From a virus: DNA of 64,000 bases. The position numbers and the translations under genes are program-made. The notes beneath the pieces are model-generated. The model worked only from the letters and a program-made list of their open reading frames with translations, was not told the origin of the DNA and did not search any database. Location of the stretch: positions 30,013-94,012 of IMG/VR virus record IMGVR_UViG_3300030329_006605; one strand, 5' to 3'. Shown here one piece after another: positions 19,755-29,583 of this stretch (positions within the stretch are counted from its first letter, which is position 1; each line of letters starts with the position of its first letter).

Positions 19755-19968
19755 AAACGTTCTTTTGTTCCTTTCATTGATATAATATAACACACAATCA
19801 AAGTCTTGTCAAGTGATTTTCTAAAAAAAGTTATTCACAATAATGAATGACGTAGAAAAGGCAGCGCGCCCCGCGCCAAATAGGCCAAATGCTTGTATTT
19901 AAGATATTTGGCTTATCTTAGAAATACAGCGCCAAATGCGCCAAATGCTTGTATTTAAGATATTTGGC

Positions 19969-20058
19969 TTATCCGAGAAATCCGAACACCATCCCAATCA
20001 GGACGCCTATCGCTCCACCAATTAAGAAGCCACATTTGAAGTCTGCTGTTGTTTTCAT
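19969..20058 (-). CDS. 29-aa glycine-zipper membrane peptide MKTTADFKCGFLIGGAIGVLIGMVFGFLG
   Basis: ATG 7 nt after the -10 of promoter 20066-20094; GxxxG repeats. Confidence 0.6.
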   Translation of the reverse strand: MKTTADFKCGFLIGGAIGVLIGMVFGFLG

Positions 20059-20188
20059 ATACCTTAATATACCACAGAACGAAGGTAATGTCAAGCGATT
20101 TTTTTGGTTTAATTCTCGCCGCCCGTTTCATGCCAAACGCCTTTTACAAATGGTTATTTGGAGCTTGTCGTTAATCTGAGAAATTCAA

Positions 20189-20681
20189 TTAGCAAAAATT
20201 GTTGTAACCAGATTCCTTAAATGTTTGCCCACTGCGGTGGATTACTTTTGGCTCGCTAAAATGCTTTTCAAGAATGTCAAACTGATGTTCGCTTGTGCCT
20301 CTGTTGTTGGCGTACTCTAACATTCTGAGCTTCATGCAAGCCTTGGGAAAGGTTTCTTGCATCTTGGCGACAGCAAGATTCTCTTGCGTTGTGGTCGGTA
20401 CTTCGTTAGTTGGTAGGTTTTTCTTTTGCATACTAGTTAACTTTTACAAATTCATCTACATTCATTGACCAGACCGAATCAATTACTCTACCGTCTGGGC
20501 TTACTTCTATAATCTCAACGCCGCCAACCAACAACTTGGCATCGACTGCGTGCTGCAAGCACTCGTGTGCTTCCTCTAGTAATGCGTCAAATGACTTGCG
20601 ACACTTGACCCGTGAGTTGAATACATCACCCAGAAACCAGAGTTCATAGGTGGCTTGCTTGTTATCTTCTTTAATCATCAT
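20189..20681 (-). CDS. Two small early hypothetical proteins (20433-20681, 20189-20431)
   Basis: Adjacent ORFs behind an extended -10 TGTGaTATACT at about 20688. Confidence 0.6.
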
Positions 20682-20724
20682 GCGTTCAGTATATCACAGA
20701 GGGTGGGACATCCGTAGACCCACC

Positions 20725-20958
20725 TTAAAACTTTTCTACAAAAAATTCTTCGCCCCACGCTTCCAAGTGAAATTCTTGCTTGGGTAGCCACCCCATCCAG
20801 CCATCCGATGCGCGAACGAGCCACATAGGGGGGAAGGCGTTATCATTGCGACGTTCTAAAATGAAACCTTTTGCTCCATGCTCACGAATGCGATTTTTGG
20901 TGCGGGTAGTAGCCTTACTATTGGGGCTGATTAGAATGCGCTGTTCTTCAATGTTCAT
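20725..20958 (-). CDS. Small early protein (SH3-like GWMGWLP motif), leaderless start
   Basis: ATG 6 nt after the -10; the track start lies inside the promoter. Confidence 0.6.
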   Translation of the reverse strand: MNIEEQRILISPNSKATTRTKNRIREHGAKGFILERRNDNAFPPMWLVRASDGWMGWLPKQEFHLEAWGEEFFVEKF

Positions 20959-21047
20959 GAGTATAATATAACACATAAAGAGCCACTTGTCAAGGGATTT
21001 TTTAAGAAAAGTTATTCACAATTGTCTTGGCACAGAATAAGCTGCCC

Positions 21048-21239
21048 TTAGTACTCCAAGTCCCATACGCTGACACGCTCAAGCGGAGCCCATTCTACGG
21101 GGTGCTTTAAGCCCCACCAGTCATTTTTTGAGATCCTGATCGCCTCATAGGCGGTCATTTGGTAGTAGTTGGCTGTGCTGCCATCGTTGAAGGTGATAGT
21201 CCAATCTTGTTTGGGTTCATTGCCGAAGTCATACATCAT
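21048..21239 (-). CDS. Small early hypothetical protein, leaderless
   Basis: ATG 6 nt after the -10. Confidence 0.6.
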   Translation of the reverse strand: MMYDFGNEPKQDWTITFNDGSTANYYQMTAYEAIRISKNDWWGLKHPVEWAPLERVSVWDLEY

Positions 21240-26434: not shown

Positions 26435-27140
26435 GGACGAATCCGTTCCATTGTTCAGGTGTTGCTACTGTGGACTTGTAAAGTAAACCAACGATTTTTC
26501 CCATTGGGTCTAGAAACCTTAAATCGTCAGCATCTCCGTTTAACACTTCGACTCCGCCGAAATCATCAATAGGTAATGTACCACCCCCATACACAACCGC
26601 AACGTTGACGCCACGATTCAAAACGTCTTTAACCGTAGCATCACTCACATCCTCACTGTGTGAAAATGTCAAATGATAATTCTTGGGGAGCTTACCGTTT
26701 GCATAATTAGCAATGCGTGTAAGACTCTTTGTGTAATCATAGAATTGCAAACCCTCCCATTTTTCCATAATAGACTGACCTTCAATCCGAACATTTTCCC
26801 AAGGCAAATCGCTTGTACCATTAAGACGGACGCAAGGAATTTTGTTATGCTTTGAGGCTTTCTTAACTAGAGAAAGAATCTCACGATTAAGCTGCGTCAT
26901 AAACGCATCCCGCTCTTTAGCGAAGAATTTTGTTTTGTTAATTCTTGCTTGTTTAATGGGGTTCATTCGACCACGACCAGAAGTAAACAAACACGCTGCC
27001 CGACAGCCTTCGCTGGCATTTGGGCAAGTGTTAATCACTCCGCTTGCATCACTAGGGGCAAGGTAGGTAATGCCCGTCATATATCCTCTTTTCTGTCCTT
27101 TGCGAGTTTTCGCGTTGGTATCGACTCCGAGTAGTTTCAT
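26406..27140 (-). CDS. GP88-like protein
   Basis: CPNASEGCRAACL, RLNGTSD, QFYDYTK, NYHLTFS, DDLRFLD. Confidence 0.75.
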   Translation of the reverse strand: MKLLGVDTNAKTRKGQKRGYMTGITYLAPSDASGVINTCPNASEGCRAACLFTSGRGRMNPIKQARINKTKFFAKERDAFMTQLNREILSLVKKASKHNKIPCVRLNGTSDLPWENVRIEGQSIMEKWEGLQFYDYTKSLTRIANYANGKLPKNYHLTFSHSEDVSDATVKDVLNRGVNVAVVYGGGTLPIDDFGGVEVLNGDADDLRFLDPMGKIVGLLYKSTVATPEQWNGFVREYKEGEWK

Positions 27141-27153
27141 AATAATATTCTTT

Positions 27154-27936
27154 CTATGCTTGGTTTACGCGACCGTGAGATACCGCCTGTTGAACCGAGC
27201 GGCTTTTCCATTCTTCTTCATCAAAGGGCTTTGCTTGTGCAGGGTTTTCCCTCGACTCAACTCTACCCAATGAATAATCATACACGACAGGGTTCGTGGA
27301 CATGAACACCTCTGTGTTTTCCATGAGTTCAGCCAACCGCTTTTCTGCTAGTTCTTTAGCTGATGGCATCACGCCACCCTCTACACCCTTGAAACTCTCT
27401 GGATGCAAATTCAACAATAAATGTAATGATGAATTGAGAAAATACTTTTTCGCACGTTCTTCGTCTGTGACAATGTAGGAGAAAGTCTCACACATCTCAT
27501 GTAACCCGCCGCTTGTTGCGCCGTGATTCCAGAATGAGTTATACTGTTGTTCCATTTCTTCTGGGTCATTAGATTCAATACCAATGAGCCAGACCGTTCC
27601 GAGTTGTTGTAGTACCAGTTTCATATATCTATAATATCGCACATAAAGTGTTAAAAGTCAAGAGACAATGTGTCACACCTTCCCAATCTGATGAATATAA
27701 GATTCAACATCTTCGGGAGTGCACCACCCTTTAACTGTATCGCCCCAATCGTCAGGGTCAACCATGTGATTGTTGAAGAAGCAACCAATTTCATACAAGC
27801 CCTTTTCGCCGCCATACGAAAACTTATGTCTCACCACGGAAACTTCATAGCCATTCGGCAATTCTACATACGCCTGAACCGCACCCGCTCCGTGTGTTTT
27901 TGAGATGTCATTAAACTCCAGTTCGCTGAATTTCAT
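27154..27936 (-). CDS. Two early hypothetical proteins (27154-27624, 27673-27936)
   Basis: Leaderless starts; the second has the common phage motif NGYEVSVV...SYGG..GLYE. Confidence 0.6.
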
Positions 27937-28108
27937 AATACAATATAGCACACAAACGGGGGTTTGTCAAGGGGTTTTTTTCACTTTTTTCACTTGGCAC
28001 GAAATCTGCTGCCCATTTTGCGCCAAGGAAGCTCCCCCAAATCGGGGGAGCTCCATGTTTACGAGGTCCTACAGTTCTCGGGCACACGGTACCCGGAGAT
28101 TTTGCATG

Positions 28109-28993
28109 CTACTCAGTAACAACCACCGCGCTATTTTTGGCGGGAGTCCAAAGCGTCTCCAGTCGCTTTTTGTTACGAGCAGCCATGTCAAACTTTTTGA
28201 GAACGTTGCCAGTCACACGGTTGGCGTATTCGAAACGCTCGTCCGCCACCTCATGGGTGAGATGCTGAGTCACCGCGTTGTTCAGGTTGTAAAGGTTACG
28301 TGCCTTATCCTCTTCGTGATCAGGATTGTTCCAAATCTTGGCGATGCTTTCGCGCACCTTCTCGCTGAACACTTTGCCATTCGCCAGATTCTGCAAGATG
28401 ATCAGACCTTGCTCCTGAGTAACAGGCTGTTGAGCCATCCGACCGTAAACGTTCAAGCTGTCCTTGAGCTTAGCCAATGCGCGATCCAAAGCGTCTTCGG
28501 TAATGATATCGCCAATGTTGATGTTGGTCGAATGCTTGCGCACCATCTCCACCTCTTTTTCAGTGGTCGTCATGCCATTGGTGCATACGAGCCGAACCAA
28601 TCCAAGAGCAAAGGAAATGCGCAGCGTGCGATCAAATGAGTTTTGAGCAGTAAGGCGATAAGCCATGGTGTCCCCAACCTGAGGAACGTCAGCCCTAAAT
28701 AGGTCTCCGCCTAAATCGTACTGCGCTCGCATCTTGGCTCCACCCTCAGTCACAATGACTTTGCGTGTAACATCGATGCCTCGATCTTCGAAAGCTTTGT
28801 CTGCGCGGTTAATGATATCCTCGTGCTGTACAATTCCGTAGCGTTCGGTTGTCCAGCCAAGAATGTCGTCATTATCCTCACGGACATTCATGAAATAACC
28901 GGATTTACCTCCGAGGGTTGGGTGTGGAACCTCGACCTGCCTCACTTTAAAGTCAAAGCCGCTGTTGATTTCTTGTTTTGCTGTAATAGGCAT
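28109..28993 (-). CDS. DUF932/DUF945-family protein
   Basis: RYGIVQH, NSFD, RLVCTNGM, H, NLYNLNNAVT. Confidence 0.85.
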   Translation of the reverse strand: MPITAKQEINSGFDFKVRQVEVPHPTLGGKSGYFMNVREDNDDILGWTTERYGIVQHEDIINRADKAFEDRGIDVTRKVIVTEGGAKMRAQYDLGGDLFRADVPQVGDTMAYRLTAQNSFDRTLRISFALGLVRLVCTNGMTTTEKEVEMVRKHSTNINIGDIITEDALDRALAKLKDSLNVYGRMAQQPVTQEQGLIILQNLANGKVFSEKVRESIAKIWNNPDHEEDKARNLYNLNNAVTQHLTHEVADERFEYANRVTGNVLKKFDMAARNKKRLETLWTPAKNSAVVVTE

Positions 28994-29090
28994 CTGTAGT
29001 ACTCTCTTTCTTTTTTTGGTTAGTTAGTGTTATTCTATTCTTCTATCTTACAGGGATTTTTTCCTGCGTCAAGCTTTTTTCTTAAAAAAA

Positions 29091-29253
29091 TGGTGTTGGT
29101 GTAAGGGGCTCGAACCCTCCCCCGTCCCTATCGTATCACCTTCACGCCTTGTTATGGAGCGTCCTCCCAGCGCGTCGGCTTTCAGCCACGGGCGTTGCTG
29201 CGGTGAACGACTTTTGTCTCACAACTCGTCCAGCACTTCCATTTCTCACCAAC
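29091..29253 (-). ncRNA. 163-nt tRNA-like RNA (acceptor stem + T arm + CCA; no D or anticodon arm)
   Basis: 5' GUUGGUG pairs with CACCAAC-A-CCA; T arm GAGGG-UUCGAGC-CCCUU; own promoter 29264-29292; U-run after CCA. Confidence 0.7.
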
Positions 29254-29583
29254 ATTATACTATAATATAGCACACAAAAGGGGTTTTGTCAAGGGCTGGG
29301 AGGCATTTTTTTGAAAAAAGTTTTGGCACGAAACCGGCTGCCGATTTTGCGCCGAAGTCAAGAAAAAAACATTAATTTAACTTTATTTATAGAATATAAT
29401 TGTTCCCAGCCGATTCTTATTTGCATTATTACATTTCTTATTTGCGTATTTGGACATAACCTGTCAAAGTTCACCTCGCAATATATTCTCTTACTATTAT
29501 TTACACTTTTATTATTCCTATCCAAAATAAATCAATAACAAATTACAATTTAATTGCTACACTTATTTTATTATATTTGAATT

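What the first reader, a model, noticed from the sequence alone, without database searches (positions are those of the whole stretch)
19861..29355. Array of head-to-head sigma54-like -24/-12 dyads upstream of early sigma70 promoters
Seen: eight 33-bp dyads TTGGCAYG-N6-GCWGC-N6-CRTGCCAA and at least six half-sites within about 10 kb; I noticed none elsewhere in the window. The N6 segments vary freely but every half keeps the GG-N10-GC spacing, e.g. TGGTATGGGATTTGCA (- strand of 22682-22714), TTGGCACGAAAACTGCA (26058), TTGGCACGAAATCTGCT (27994). Most dyads start 23 or 30-33 bp upstream of a TTGACA, about one helical turn apart, with A-tracts between. Known: TGGCAC-N5-TTGC is the RpoN promoter; RpoN holoenzyme sits in stable closed complexes without an enhancer-binding protein; E. 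coli psp and rtcBA are RpoN-dependent. Inference: two convergent boxes sharing a GCWGC centre make a poor promoter but a good orientation-independent trap. This could be a DNA decoy array that titrates host sigma54-RNAP, or a gate tying early genes to host sigma54 state. A dimeric phage repressor operator is the alternative. I know of no described phage system like this.
Basis: partly seen in the sequence, partly recalled or inferred. Interest (0 to 1): 0.9.

Follow-up and report, generated by a model that had tools for sequence, protein, structure and literature searches.

The report
Sigma-54-like dyads before phage early promoters
An uncultured marine phage and about thirty related viral contigs place a rigid 33-bp palindrome, each half a near-consensus docking site for the bacterial sigma-54 RNA polymerase, a whole number of helical turns upstream of their strong early promoters; it behaves as a protein-binding mark rather than a hairpin, but what binds it is untested.

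Summary
The window has 13 such elements: 9 full dyads and 4 with one decayed arm. All lie in 19.8-29.4 kb and none elsewhere in the 94-kb record. Each sits upstream of one of 15 near-consensus sigma70 promoters that drive small minus-strand early genes.

The exact dyad TTGGCAYR-N6-GCNGC-N6-YRTGCCAA occurs in about 33 uncultured viral contigs, always in arrays and always 33 bp long. The arm consensus matches 12 of the 14 specified positions of the sigma54 motif YTGGCACGrNNNTTGCW. It is unchanged in lineages whose shared proteins are only 24-36% identical.

It is not a hairpin. Arms of one dyad are no more complementary than arms of different dyads, and the inner positions are less so. Either arm can decay.

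The distance to the -35 box is phased at about 10 bp. That puts the dyad centre near -62, -72, -82 and -92.

No phage sigma54, activator, integrase or resolvase was found. The host is unknown.

Best reading (0.4): a double-stranded docking site for host sigma54 polymerase, held without firing, inside shuffling early-promoter cassettes. Main rival (0.33): an operator for an unknown dimeric regulator.

This scan had already flagged the same element in a relative (e1-5817150). I found no published description.

The parts
29323..29355 (.). 33-bp dyad; the promoter-proximal arm TTGGCACGAAACCGGCTGC is perfect and the distal arm is weakened (TCGGCGCA). It lies 30 bp upstream of the -35 box at 29292.
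27994..28026 (.). 33-bp dyad, 23 bp upstream of the -35 box at 27970. A C/G-run hairpin lies just upstream on the gene strand.
26058..26090 (.). 33-bp dyad, 31 bp upstream of the -35 box at 26026
24606..24638 (.). Element with one arm kept (distal arm TTGGCATGAAATCGGCTGC at 24620-24638, minus strand). It lies 19 bp upstream of the -35 box at 24586.
24272..24304 (.). 33-bp dyad, 32 bp upstream of the -35 box at 24239. The hairpin CCCCCCTCGGGGGG lies directly upstream on the gene strand.
23504..23536 (.). 33-bp dyad, 31 bp upstream of the -35 box at 23472
23099..23131 (.). 33-bp dyad, 23 bp upstream of the -35 box at 23075
22682..22714 (.). 33-bp dyad (distal arm TTGGTATGGGATTTGCAGC), 33 bp upstream of the -35 box at 22648
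22022..22054 (.). 33-bp dyad with no promoter within 110 bp. A conserved 230-bp non-coding stretch (21792-22020) separates it from the -35 box at 21789.
21295..21327 (.). Dyad with a good distal arm and a weakened proximal arm (TTGACACC), 20 bp upstream of the -35 box at 21274
21027..21059 (.). Element with only the proximal arm kept (TTGGCACAGAATAAGCTGC on the + strand), 33 bp upstream of the -35 box at 20993
20104..20136 (.). Element with only the distal arm kept (TTGGCATGAAACGGGCGGC on the minus strand), 9 bp upstream of the -35 box at 20094
19847..19879 (.). Element with only the distal arm kept (TTGGCGCGGGGCGCGCTGC on the minus strand), 34 bp upstream of the -35 box at 19812
29264..29292 (-). 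sigma70-type early promoter (TTGACA-N17-TATATT with TG extension)
27942..27970 (-). sigma70-type early promoter; ATG 5 nt after the -10 box (87-aa conserved acidic protein)
25998..26026 (-). sigma70-type early promoter; ATG 6 nt after the -10 box
25668..25696 (-). sigma70-type early promoter without a dyad; TTATTCACA box just upstream
24558..24586 (-). sigma70-type early promoter
24211..24239 (-). sigma70-type early promoter
23444..23472 (-). sigma70-type early promoter
23047..23075 (-). sigma70-type early promoter
22620..22648 (-). sigma70-type early promoter
21761..21789 (-). sigma70-type early promoter
21246..21274 (-). sigma70-type early promoter
20965..20993 (-). sigma70-type early promoter
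20066..20094 (-). sigma70-type early promoter
19784..19812 (-). sigma70-type early promoter, the last of the array

Best explanation
Each dyad is a double-stranded DNA docking site read by sequence, not by folding. Its two overlapping, face-to-face halves each carry a sigma54 -24/-12 core (TTGGCAYR-N5-KGC). The most likely ligand is the host sigma54 RNA polymerase holoenzyme. With no phage-encoded activator, it would sit there as a silent closed complex. The dyad is one module of a reusable early cassette. On the gene strand the order is: terminator or C/G hairpin, dyad, phased A-tracts (UP element), consensus sigma70 promoter, then a nearly leaderless small gene. Related phages shuffle these cassettes. 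Because the dyad keeps a whole number of helical turns from the -35 box, the bound complex probably acts in cis on the neighbouring promoter. It could damp or gate sigma70 polymerase and alpha-CTD access to the UP element, or insulate one cassette from the next. A free-standing sink for sigma54 seems less likely. Shown here: the sequence anatomy, the conservation, the absence of hairpin covariation, the phasing and the cassette mosaicism. Inferred: that sigma54 is the ligand and what its binding does.
For: (1) The length is always 33 bp and GG-N10-GC is invariant in every arm across six, and then about 27, contig groups.
(2) The logo of 258 arms reads T T G G C A C/t G r n n n s k G C W. That matches 12 of the 14 specified positions of YTGGCACGrNNNTTGCW. 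It also fits the E. coli holoenzyme motif TGGCACnnTTnTTGC. The least conserved positions of the -24 block (1, 7 and 8) are the ones the published consensus writes as degenerate or weak.
(3) Within-contig permutation shows no excess complementarity between the arms of one dyad. Inner positions are less complementary than permuted pairs (z -2 to -4) and flanks are at chance. The centre KGCNGCM is symmetric right through the axis. Recognition is therefore of duplex DNA.
(4) 17 of 74 arms have decayed, on either side of the dyad, so one arm suffices and orientation does not matter.
(5) The arms are identical in lineages whose shared proteins are only 24-36% identical. This fits a highly conserved host ligand better than a co-evolving phage repressor.
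(6) Neither the phage nor two relatives encode sigma54 or a bona fide enhancer-binding protein. The neighbouring AAA+ gene is RuvB-like.
(7) Dyad-to-promoter distances are phased at about 10 bp, with Rayleigh R 0.52 and p 2e-6 for n=50.
(8) There are precedents. Phage YuA depends on host sigma54. E. coli RpoN holoenzyme bound without an enhancer represses nearby RpoD promoters.
Against: No binding data exist and the host is unknown, so the presence of rpoN is unverified. Host clues are mixed: RmlA and ATE-like homologues are commonest in Bacteroidota and Verrucomicrobiota, and manA RNA is known from Photobacterium and cyanophages. A cyanobacterial host would lack sigma54. The -15/-14 'TT' of the consensus is mostly S-K here, with T at -14 in only 38% of arms. 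A symmetric dyad centred near -62/-72/-82/-92 is the classic geometry of a dimeric class I regulator. The phasing could also simply reflect gain and loss of 10-bp A-tract units. A more distant relative (L213) has a different double palindrome without GG boxes at the same kind of place. That suggests lineage-specific operators may be the general theme. Two holoenzymes cannot occupy both halves at once, so the selection for two arms is not explained.
Confidence: 0.4

Rival explanations
1. The dyad is the operator of an unknown dimeric or tetrameric DNA-binding regulator, phage-encoded or host-encoded. From a class I-like upstream position it activates or shuts off the early sigma70 promoters. 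The likeness to sigma54 boxes is coincidence or mimicry.
For: The site is a symmetric 33-bp sequence. Its centre lies near -62/-72/-82/-92 and is phased at about 10 bp. The sites occur only beside early promoters. There is no hairpin covariation. A distant relative carries a different palindrome system in the same kind of place. The phage has its own ECF sigma factor, so a temporal cascade that needs early shut-off is plausible.
Against: No helix-turn-helix or other DNA-binding family was found among the conserved early proteins. The most widely shared small protein (87 aa) is acidic and is also present in the dyad-less lineage. The arms do not change between lineages with 24-36% protein identity. 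A chance match to 12 of 14 specified sigma54 positions with exact spacing is very unlikely. Single arms persist.
Confidence: 0.33
2. The dyads are working, enhancer-dependent sigma54 promoters that fire in one or both directions. They would give leadered sense transcripts or antisense RNAs against the upstream early gene, once a host activator or an unrecognised phage activator opens them.
For: Both arms are near-consensus promoters. Phage YuA uses sigma54 promoters.
Against: No enhancer-binding protein was found in 94-142 kb of three genomes. No recurring upstream activator site was seen. The two promoters overlap head-to-head. Either orientation can be lost. Sense transcripts would carry a roughly 90-nt leader in front of genes built to be leaderless. 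The + strand carries no genes.
Confidence: 0.08
3. The dyad matters mainly as a patch of conserved sequence, or as a recombinase target, at which early-gene cassettes recombine, as PeSLs do in T4-type phages. Its sequence is conserved because it spreads with the cassette.
For: Gene order in the early region is mosaic between relatives, and homology blocks start at the cassettes. The architecture resembles PeSLs.
Against: Simple homology patches would decay evenly. Here positions 1-8 and 15-19 are nearly invariant while positions 9-14 drift. No integrase or resolvase was found. Helical phasing with the promoter is not explained. This reading is compatible with the others as a second role.
Confidence: 0.1
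4. The dyad acts as a hairpin in RNA or single-stranded DNA, serving as a terminator, an RNase III site or a 3'-end stabiliser.
For: In this window the gene-strand RNA folds better than the antisense RNA for 6 of 9 dyads, through G-U pairs. Canonical terminators are scarce inside the array.
Against: There is no compensatory covariation in 118 dyads, and inner positions pair less often than permuted ones. The asymmetry is reversed in relative G001. The G-U bias comes largely from four paralogous copies. No U-run follows the dyad. In other lineages a canonical stem plus T-run lies directly upstream of the dyad. Conservation runs through the would-be loop. One-armed elements persist. There was no Rfam match.
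Confidence: 0.05

Closest known systems
Bacterial sigma54 (RpoN) -24/-12 promoters, including the enhancer-free 'repressive promoters' of E. coli (PMC8743547)
   Same: The core YTGGCACGr-N3-nKGCW has invariant GG and GC 10 bp apart. In E. coli, holoenzyme parked without an activator can block nearby RpoD promoters.
   Different: Here two cores overlap head-to-head and share the -12 region. They lie upstream of the sigma70 promoter rather than over it. They come in arrays of about 13 per phage. They have no enhancer site and no encoded activator. The -15/-14 TT is usually missing. Binding is untested.
PeSL (promoter-early stem-loop) cassettes of T4-type phages RB49 and phi1 (Arbiol et al. 2010, PMC2839356)
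   Same: These are roughly 100-bp intergenic cassettes with an AT-rich tract, a strong sigma70 early promoter and a palindromic element. They are repeated before small orphan genes in a plastic region and serve as points of modular shuffling. C/G-run hairpins like those of PeSLs lie next to several dyads in this window.
   Different: The PeSL stem-loop is a structure of variable sequence that terminates transcription. This dyad is a fixed 33-bp sequence with no pairing covariation. It sits between a separate terminator and the promoter. This phage is not T4-type: its terminase and portal are only remotely like those of Bacillus phage Basilisk.
Sigma54 dependence of Pseudomonas phage YuA (Ceyssens et al. 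2008, as cited in PMC5053324 and PMC10914365)
   Same: It is a lytic phage that relies on host sigma54 and has sigma54-like promoter regions.
   Different: YuA has single directional promoters that drive genes. It has no arrays of head-to-head dyads upstream of sigma70 promoters.
Class I activator sites (for example CRP at -61.5/-71.5/-82.5/-92.5) and phi29 p4 sites upstream of early and late promoters (from general knowledge)
   Same: These are symmetric sites on the same helical face as RNA polymerase, upstream of the UP element, at 10-bp steps.
   Different: This site is 33 bp long with three conserved blocks. Its sequence is unlike any regulator site I could recall, and no candidate protein was found.

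Membership tests
sigma54 (-24/-12) promoter | Invariant GG and GC separated by exactly 10 bp | tested here: met
   All arms with TTGGCAYR have GCNGC at offset 14, and all dyads are 33 bp. G3 is 100%, G4 98%, G15 98% and C16 100% in 258 arms.
sigma54 (-24/-12) promoter | Extended consensus YTGGCACGrNNNTTGCW | tested here: met
   12 of the 14 specified positions match the arm consensus. The exceptions are -15 and -14, which are S and K, with T at -14 in 38% of arms.
sigma54 (-24/-12) promoter | An enhancer-binding AAA+ activator and an upstream activator site | tested here: not met
   No match to PF00158 over its cut-off in G000, G001 or G002; the only weak match is a RuvB-like protein. No recurring upstream activator site was noticed. 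The records are 60-83% complete, and a host activator remains possible.
sigma54 (-24/-12) promoter | A gene downstream, in the direction of the promoter, at a usable distance | tested here: inconclusive
   Distal arms point at the early genes but across the sigma70 promoter. Proximal arms point against the upstream gene. Either arm can be lost.
sigma54 (-24/-12) promoter | Bound by sigma54 holoenzyme; the host has rpoN; transcription starts about 12 nt after the GC | not testable with these tools
   The host is unknown.
PeSL cassette | Intergenic unit of AT-rich tract, strong sigma70 early promoter and palindrome, repeated before small orphan genes | tested here: met
PeSL cassette | Relatives differ by gene gain, loss or reordering at the cassettes | tested here: met
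   Shared early genes stand in different order in W, L210, L211 and G001, and homology blocks begin at the promoters. Exact junctions were not mapped.
PeSL cassette | The palindrome is a stem-loop that terminates transcription | tested here: not met
   No pairing covariation. No U-run follows. Separate terminators lie upstream in some lineages.
PeSL cassette | Host phage is T4-type | tested here: not met
   Terminase and portal have only remote (22-25%) matches, to Bacillus and Clostridium phages. rIIA and a ligase are present.
Site-specific recombination site (lox/FRT/attC-like) | A cognate tyrosine or serine recombinase is encoded | tested here: not met
   PF00589 and PF00239 are absent from G000, G001 and G002. 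The records are incomplete.

The most novel reading that the evidence does not exclude
A large group of marine phages builds enhancer-less, head-to-head sigma54 docking sites into every mobile early-promoter cassette. They would use the long-lived closed complex of the host's alternative polymerase as a cis-acting brake, insulator or sensor for sigma70 early transcription, and incidentally as a sink for sigma54. No phage paper describes such a use of sigma54.
Probability: 0.35. Interest if true: 0.85.

Novelty: new variant of a known kind. Interest (0 to 1): 0.62.

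Why it matters
If sigma54 polymerase really docks here, this would be the first cis-element by which phages exploit the silent closed complex of an alternative host polymerase rather than its transcription. 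It would tie early phage gene expression to host sigma54 state, which reflects nitrogen status, envelope stress, motility and RNA repair. It would also give a natural, compact and orientation-free sigma54 trap for synthetic biology. If another protein binds, the element still defines a widespread, rigidly built operator in an uncultured phage group and the boundary of its shuffling early-gene cassettes. Either way the question is directly testable with a 33-bp oligonucleotide.

Tried and rejected
- Hairpin or terminator reading: rejected by the permutation test, the absence of U-runs and separate terminators upstream of dyads in other lineages. The G-U bias on the gene strand in this window comes largely from four paralogous copies and is reversed in G001.
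- Phage-encoded sigma54 or enhancer-binding protein: none found. The AAA+ gene at 29641-30579 is RuvB-like along its whole length.
- Recombinase target: no integrase or resolvase found.
- Restriction or methylation role for the GCNGC centre: GCNGC is not depleted in the genome, at a ratio of 1.18.
- Candidate dyad-binding proteins: Pfam and PHROG scans of about 20 early proteins gave no DNA-binding family. The widely shared 87-aa protein is acidic and also occurs in the dyad-less lineage.
- Host identification failed. There is no close cultured phage. RmlA relatives are spread over many phyla. The atlas look-up pointed to Bacteroidota and Verrucomicrobiota, but for a transferable gene. No psbA was found.
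- I did not build a position weight matrix from the E. coli gSELEX table. I used published consensus strings instead.
- Known RNA families: none in the array.

Full report
**What is there**

The window is the right-hand 64 kb of a 94-kb IMG/VR virus record. Genes in 19.8-29.4 kb all run on the minus strand. A pattern search found nine 33-bp dyads, TTGGCAYG-N6-GCWGC-N6-CRTGCCAA, with up to 3 mismatches, against none in 100 shuffles. None lies elsewhere in the 94-kb record. A looser search gives 13 elements, four of which keep only one good arm.

The same 10 kb holds 15 strong sigma70-type promoters on the minus strand. Fourteen of these are CCC-TTGACA-N17-TGTGCTATATT and score 11 of 12; the fifteenth (23885-23912) is TTGACA-N16-TATAAT and scores 12 of 12. 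The ATG follows the -10 box by only 5-8 nt, so most early mRNAs should be leaderless or nearly so.

Read on the gene strand, a cassette runs in this order:
- the end of the upstream gene;
- often a C-run/G-run hairpin;
- the dyad;
- 9-34 bp of A-tracts, or a TTATTCACA box;
- the promoter, then the gene.

Canonical intrinsic terminators occur only at the two ends of the array.

**Relatives**

No cultured phage is close. IMG/VR holds relatives:
- G001 (142 kb), G002 and L013;
- L210 and L211, whose RuvB-like protein is 68-69% identical to the window's;
- many more contigs found with the dyad pattern itself.

The exact pattern TTGGCAYR-N6-GCNGC-N6-YRTGCCAA should occur by chance about once in the whole collection (my estimate from the pattern's specificity). 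It hits 55 stretches in about 33 contigs, always several per contig. That yields 129 distinct dyads. These contigs share early genes with the window at 24-81% protein identity. They therefore form one broad, uncultured phage group. An earlier report of this scan calls it marine (e1-5817150); I did not verify the habitat myself.

**Sequence-read or structure-read?**

All dyads are exactly 33 bp. Every arm has its GC exactly 10 bp after its GG. The logo of 258 arms is T T G G C A C/t G r n n n s k G C W G C.

I paired left arms with right arms of other dyads from the same contig. This permutation showed no excess complementarity within a dyad at any position. Inner positions 9-14 pair in only 30-50% of dyads, which is less than the permuted pairs (z -2 to -4). 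The 10-bp flanks pair at chance level.

Three further points agree with this:
- The centre KGCNGCM is symmetric through the axis, which a hairpin loop does not need.
- 17 of 74 arms have decayed, on either side of the dyad.
- In several lineages a canonical stem plus T-run lies directly upstream of the dyad.

In this window the gene-strand RNA does fold better than the antisense RNA, through G-U pairs. However, this comes largely from four paralogous copies and is reversed in G001. Rfam has no match in the array. I conclude that the element is recognised as duplex DNA by sequence, not as a hairpin.

**Likeness to sigma54 promoters**

The published motif is YTGGCACGrNNNTTGCW. The E. coli holoenzyme-alone motif is TGGCACnnTTnTTGC. 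The arm consensus matches 12 of the 14 specified positions at the right spacing. The matches include the degenerate Y, r and W. The least conserved positions of the -24 block are the same ones that vary among sigma54 promoters. Only the -15/-14 TT is mostly missing.

The arms are unchanged in lineages whose shared proteins are 24-36% identical. This fits a very conserved ligand better than a co-evolving phage repressor.

The phage and two relatives encode no sigma54 DNA-binding domain and no bona fide enhancer-binding ATPase. The neighbouring AAA+ gene aligns end to end with RuvB.

**Relation to the sigma70 promoter**

For 50 dyads with a recognisable promoter within 120 bp, the distance from the dyad end to the -35 box clusters at multiples of about 10 bp. 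The Rayleigh statistic is R 0.52 with p 2e-6, and p 6e-4 when only distinct distance values are counted. With the start site 7 nt after the -10 box, the dyad centre falls near -62, -72, -82 and -92.

This favours action in cis on the promoter over a free-standing decoy. It is also the textbook geometry of a dimeric class I regulator. A caveat applies: the spacer is built from 10-bp A-tract units, so phasing could partly be a by-product of gaining and losing such units.

**Cassette mobility**

Shared early genes stand in different order in the window, L210, L211 and G001. Nucleotide homology blocks begin at the promoters. The architecture matches the PeSL concept of T4-type phages: an AT-rich tract, a strong early promoter and a palindrome before orphan genes, which acts as a shuffling point. 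In PeSLs, however, the palindrome is a terminator stem-loop of variable sequence. No integrase or resolvase was found.

**Counter-evidence and limits**

A more distant relative, L213 (RuvB-like 54% identical), lacks the TTGGCA arms. It carries a different double palindrome, TAAGTC-N14-GACTTA twice, around a GC-rich GCNGC centre. Lineage-specific operators may therefore be the wider theme.

The host is unknown. Homologues of transferable genes point to Bacteroidota and Verrucomicrobiota, yet the promoters are canonical sigma70 type. A manA RNA is known from Photobacterium and from cyanophages (Photobacterium from my general knowledge). No psbA was found. If the host lacked rpoN, the sigma54 reading would fall. 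No expression data could be obtained.

**Verdict**

The element is a conserved, rigid, duplex-read docking site embedded in mobile early-promoter cassettes.

| Reading | Confidence |
|---|---|
| Host sigma54 holoenzyme, held as a closed complex and acting in cis | 0.40 |
| Unknown dimeric regulator | 0.33 |
| Recombination patch only | 0.10 |
| Working sigma54 promoters | 0.08 |
| Hairpin | 0.05 |

One is the 'repressive promoter' behaviour of RpoN holoenzyme in E. coli. The other is the sigma54 dependence of phage YuA. My searches found no paper describing such dyads.

The scan itself had already flagged the same element in a relative (e1-5817150) and sigma54 boxes in the early regions of other phages. 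Those notes are leads, not evidence.

Noticed in passing
window 19784-29292, minus strand: In most of the 15 early promoters the ATG lies only 5-8 nt after the -10 hexamer. The early mRNAs should therefore be leaderless or nearly so. Many later genes also lack a clear Shine-Dalgarno sequence.
   Followed up: partly
window 19831-25710 and loci L211, L230, L250, L256: A perfect DnaA-box-like 9-mer, TTATTCACA (or TTATTAACA), sits between the dyad and the -35 box in many cassettes of several lineages. In other cassettes a GTGAAAAAAA repeat takes its place. It may be a second factor site or part of the UP element.
   Followed up: partly
window 56140-56733 (-) and 55529-56143 (-): The phage encodes an ECF-type sigma-70 family factor of 197 aa (TIGR02937, 1.5e-25), followed by a 204-aa protein with no family match that could be its anti-sigma. 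G001 has two sigma genes. This suggests a phage-run middle or late transcription programme.
   Followed up: partly
window 52666-52846 (-): There is a full-length manA RNA (Rfam RF01745, 68 bits, above the gathering score). This candidate riboswitch-like motif is known from marine bacteria and cyanophages. It lies next to sugar-nucleotide genes (GDP-mannose dehydratase-like at 53587-54492).
   Followed up: partly
window 21792-22020: A 230-bp non-coding stretch lies between the dyad at 22022 and the promoter at 21789. It is conserved at 76% in L210 and G001 but in the opposite orientation. It holds three TTGTCRATCA direct repeats about 35 bp apart and could be an origin-like or iteron region.
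   Followed up: no
window 19885-19925, 19940-19980 and 21345-21390: There are three copies of a roughly 40-bp repeat (GCTTGTATTTAAGATATTTGGCTTATC...GAGAAAT), each just upstream, on the gene strand, of a dyad element. Each contains a CCAAAT...ATTTGG inverted repeat.
   Followed up: no
window 20001-30000 compared with the rest: The early-cassette region is 42-48% G+C, against 34-40% for most of the window. This fits a cassette pool shared among phages of different base composition.
   Followed up: no
whole record G000: CCNGG occurs at 0.27 and GGNCC at 0.54 of the number expected from dinucleotide composition, and GATC at 0.61. GCNGC is not depleted. This looks like avoidance of particular restriction sites.
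   Followed up: no
locus L213 11452-11523, 15114-15186, 20086-20157, 20769-20840: A more distant relative has a different element. It consists of two 26-bp units (TAAGTC-N14-GACTTA) 46 bp apart, flanking a GC-rich palindrome centred on GCNGC. At two of the sites checked (near 15114 and 18462) a strong promoter follows within 60 bp. It has no GG boxes.
   Followed up: partly
window 27673-27936 (-): An 87-aa acidic protein directly after one cassette is the most widely shared early gene of the group, at 31-75% identity in at least 12 loci. It is also present in the dyad-less lineage L212. It matches no family beyond PHROG 4074.
   Followed up: partly
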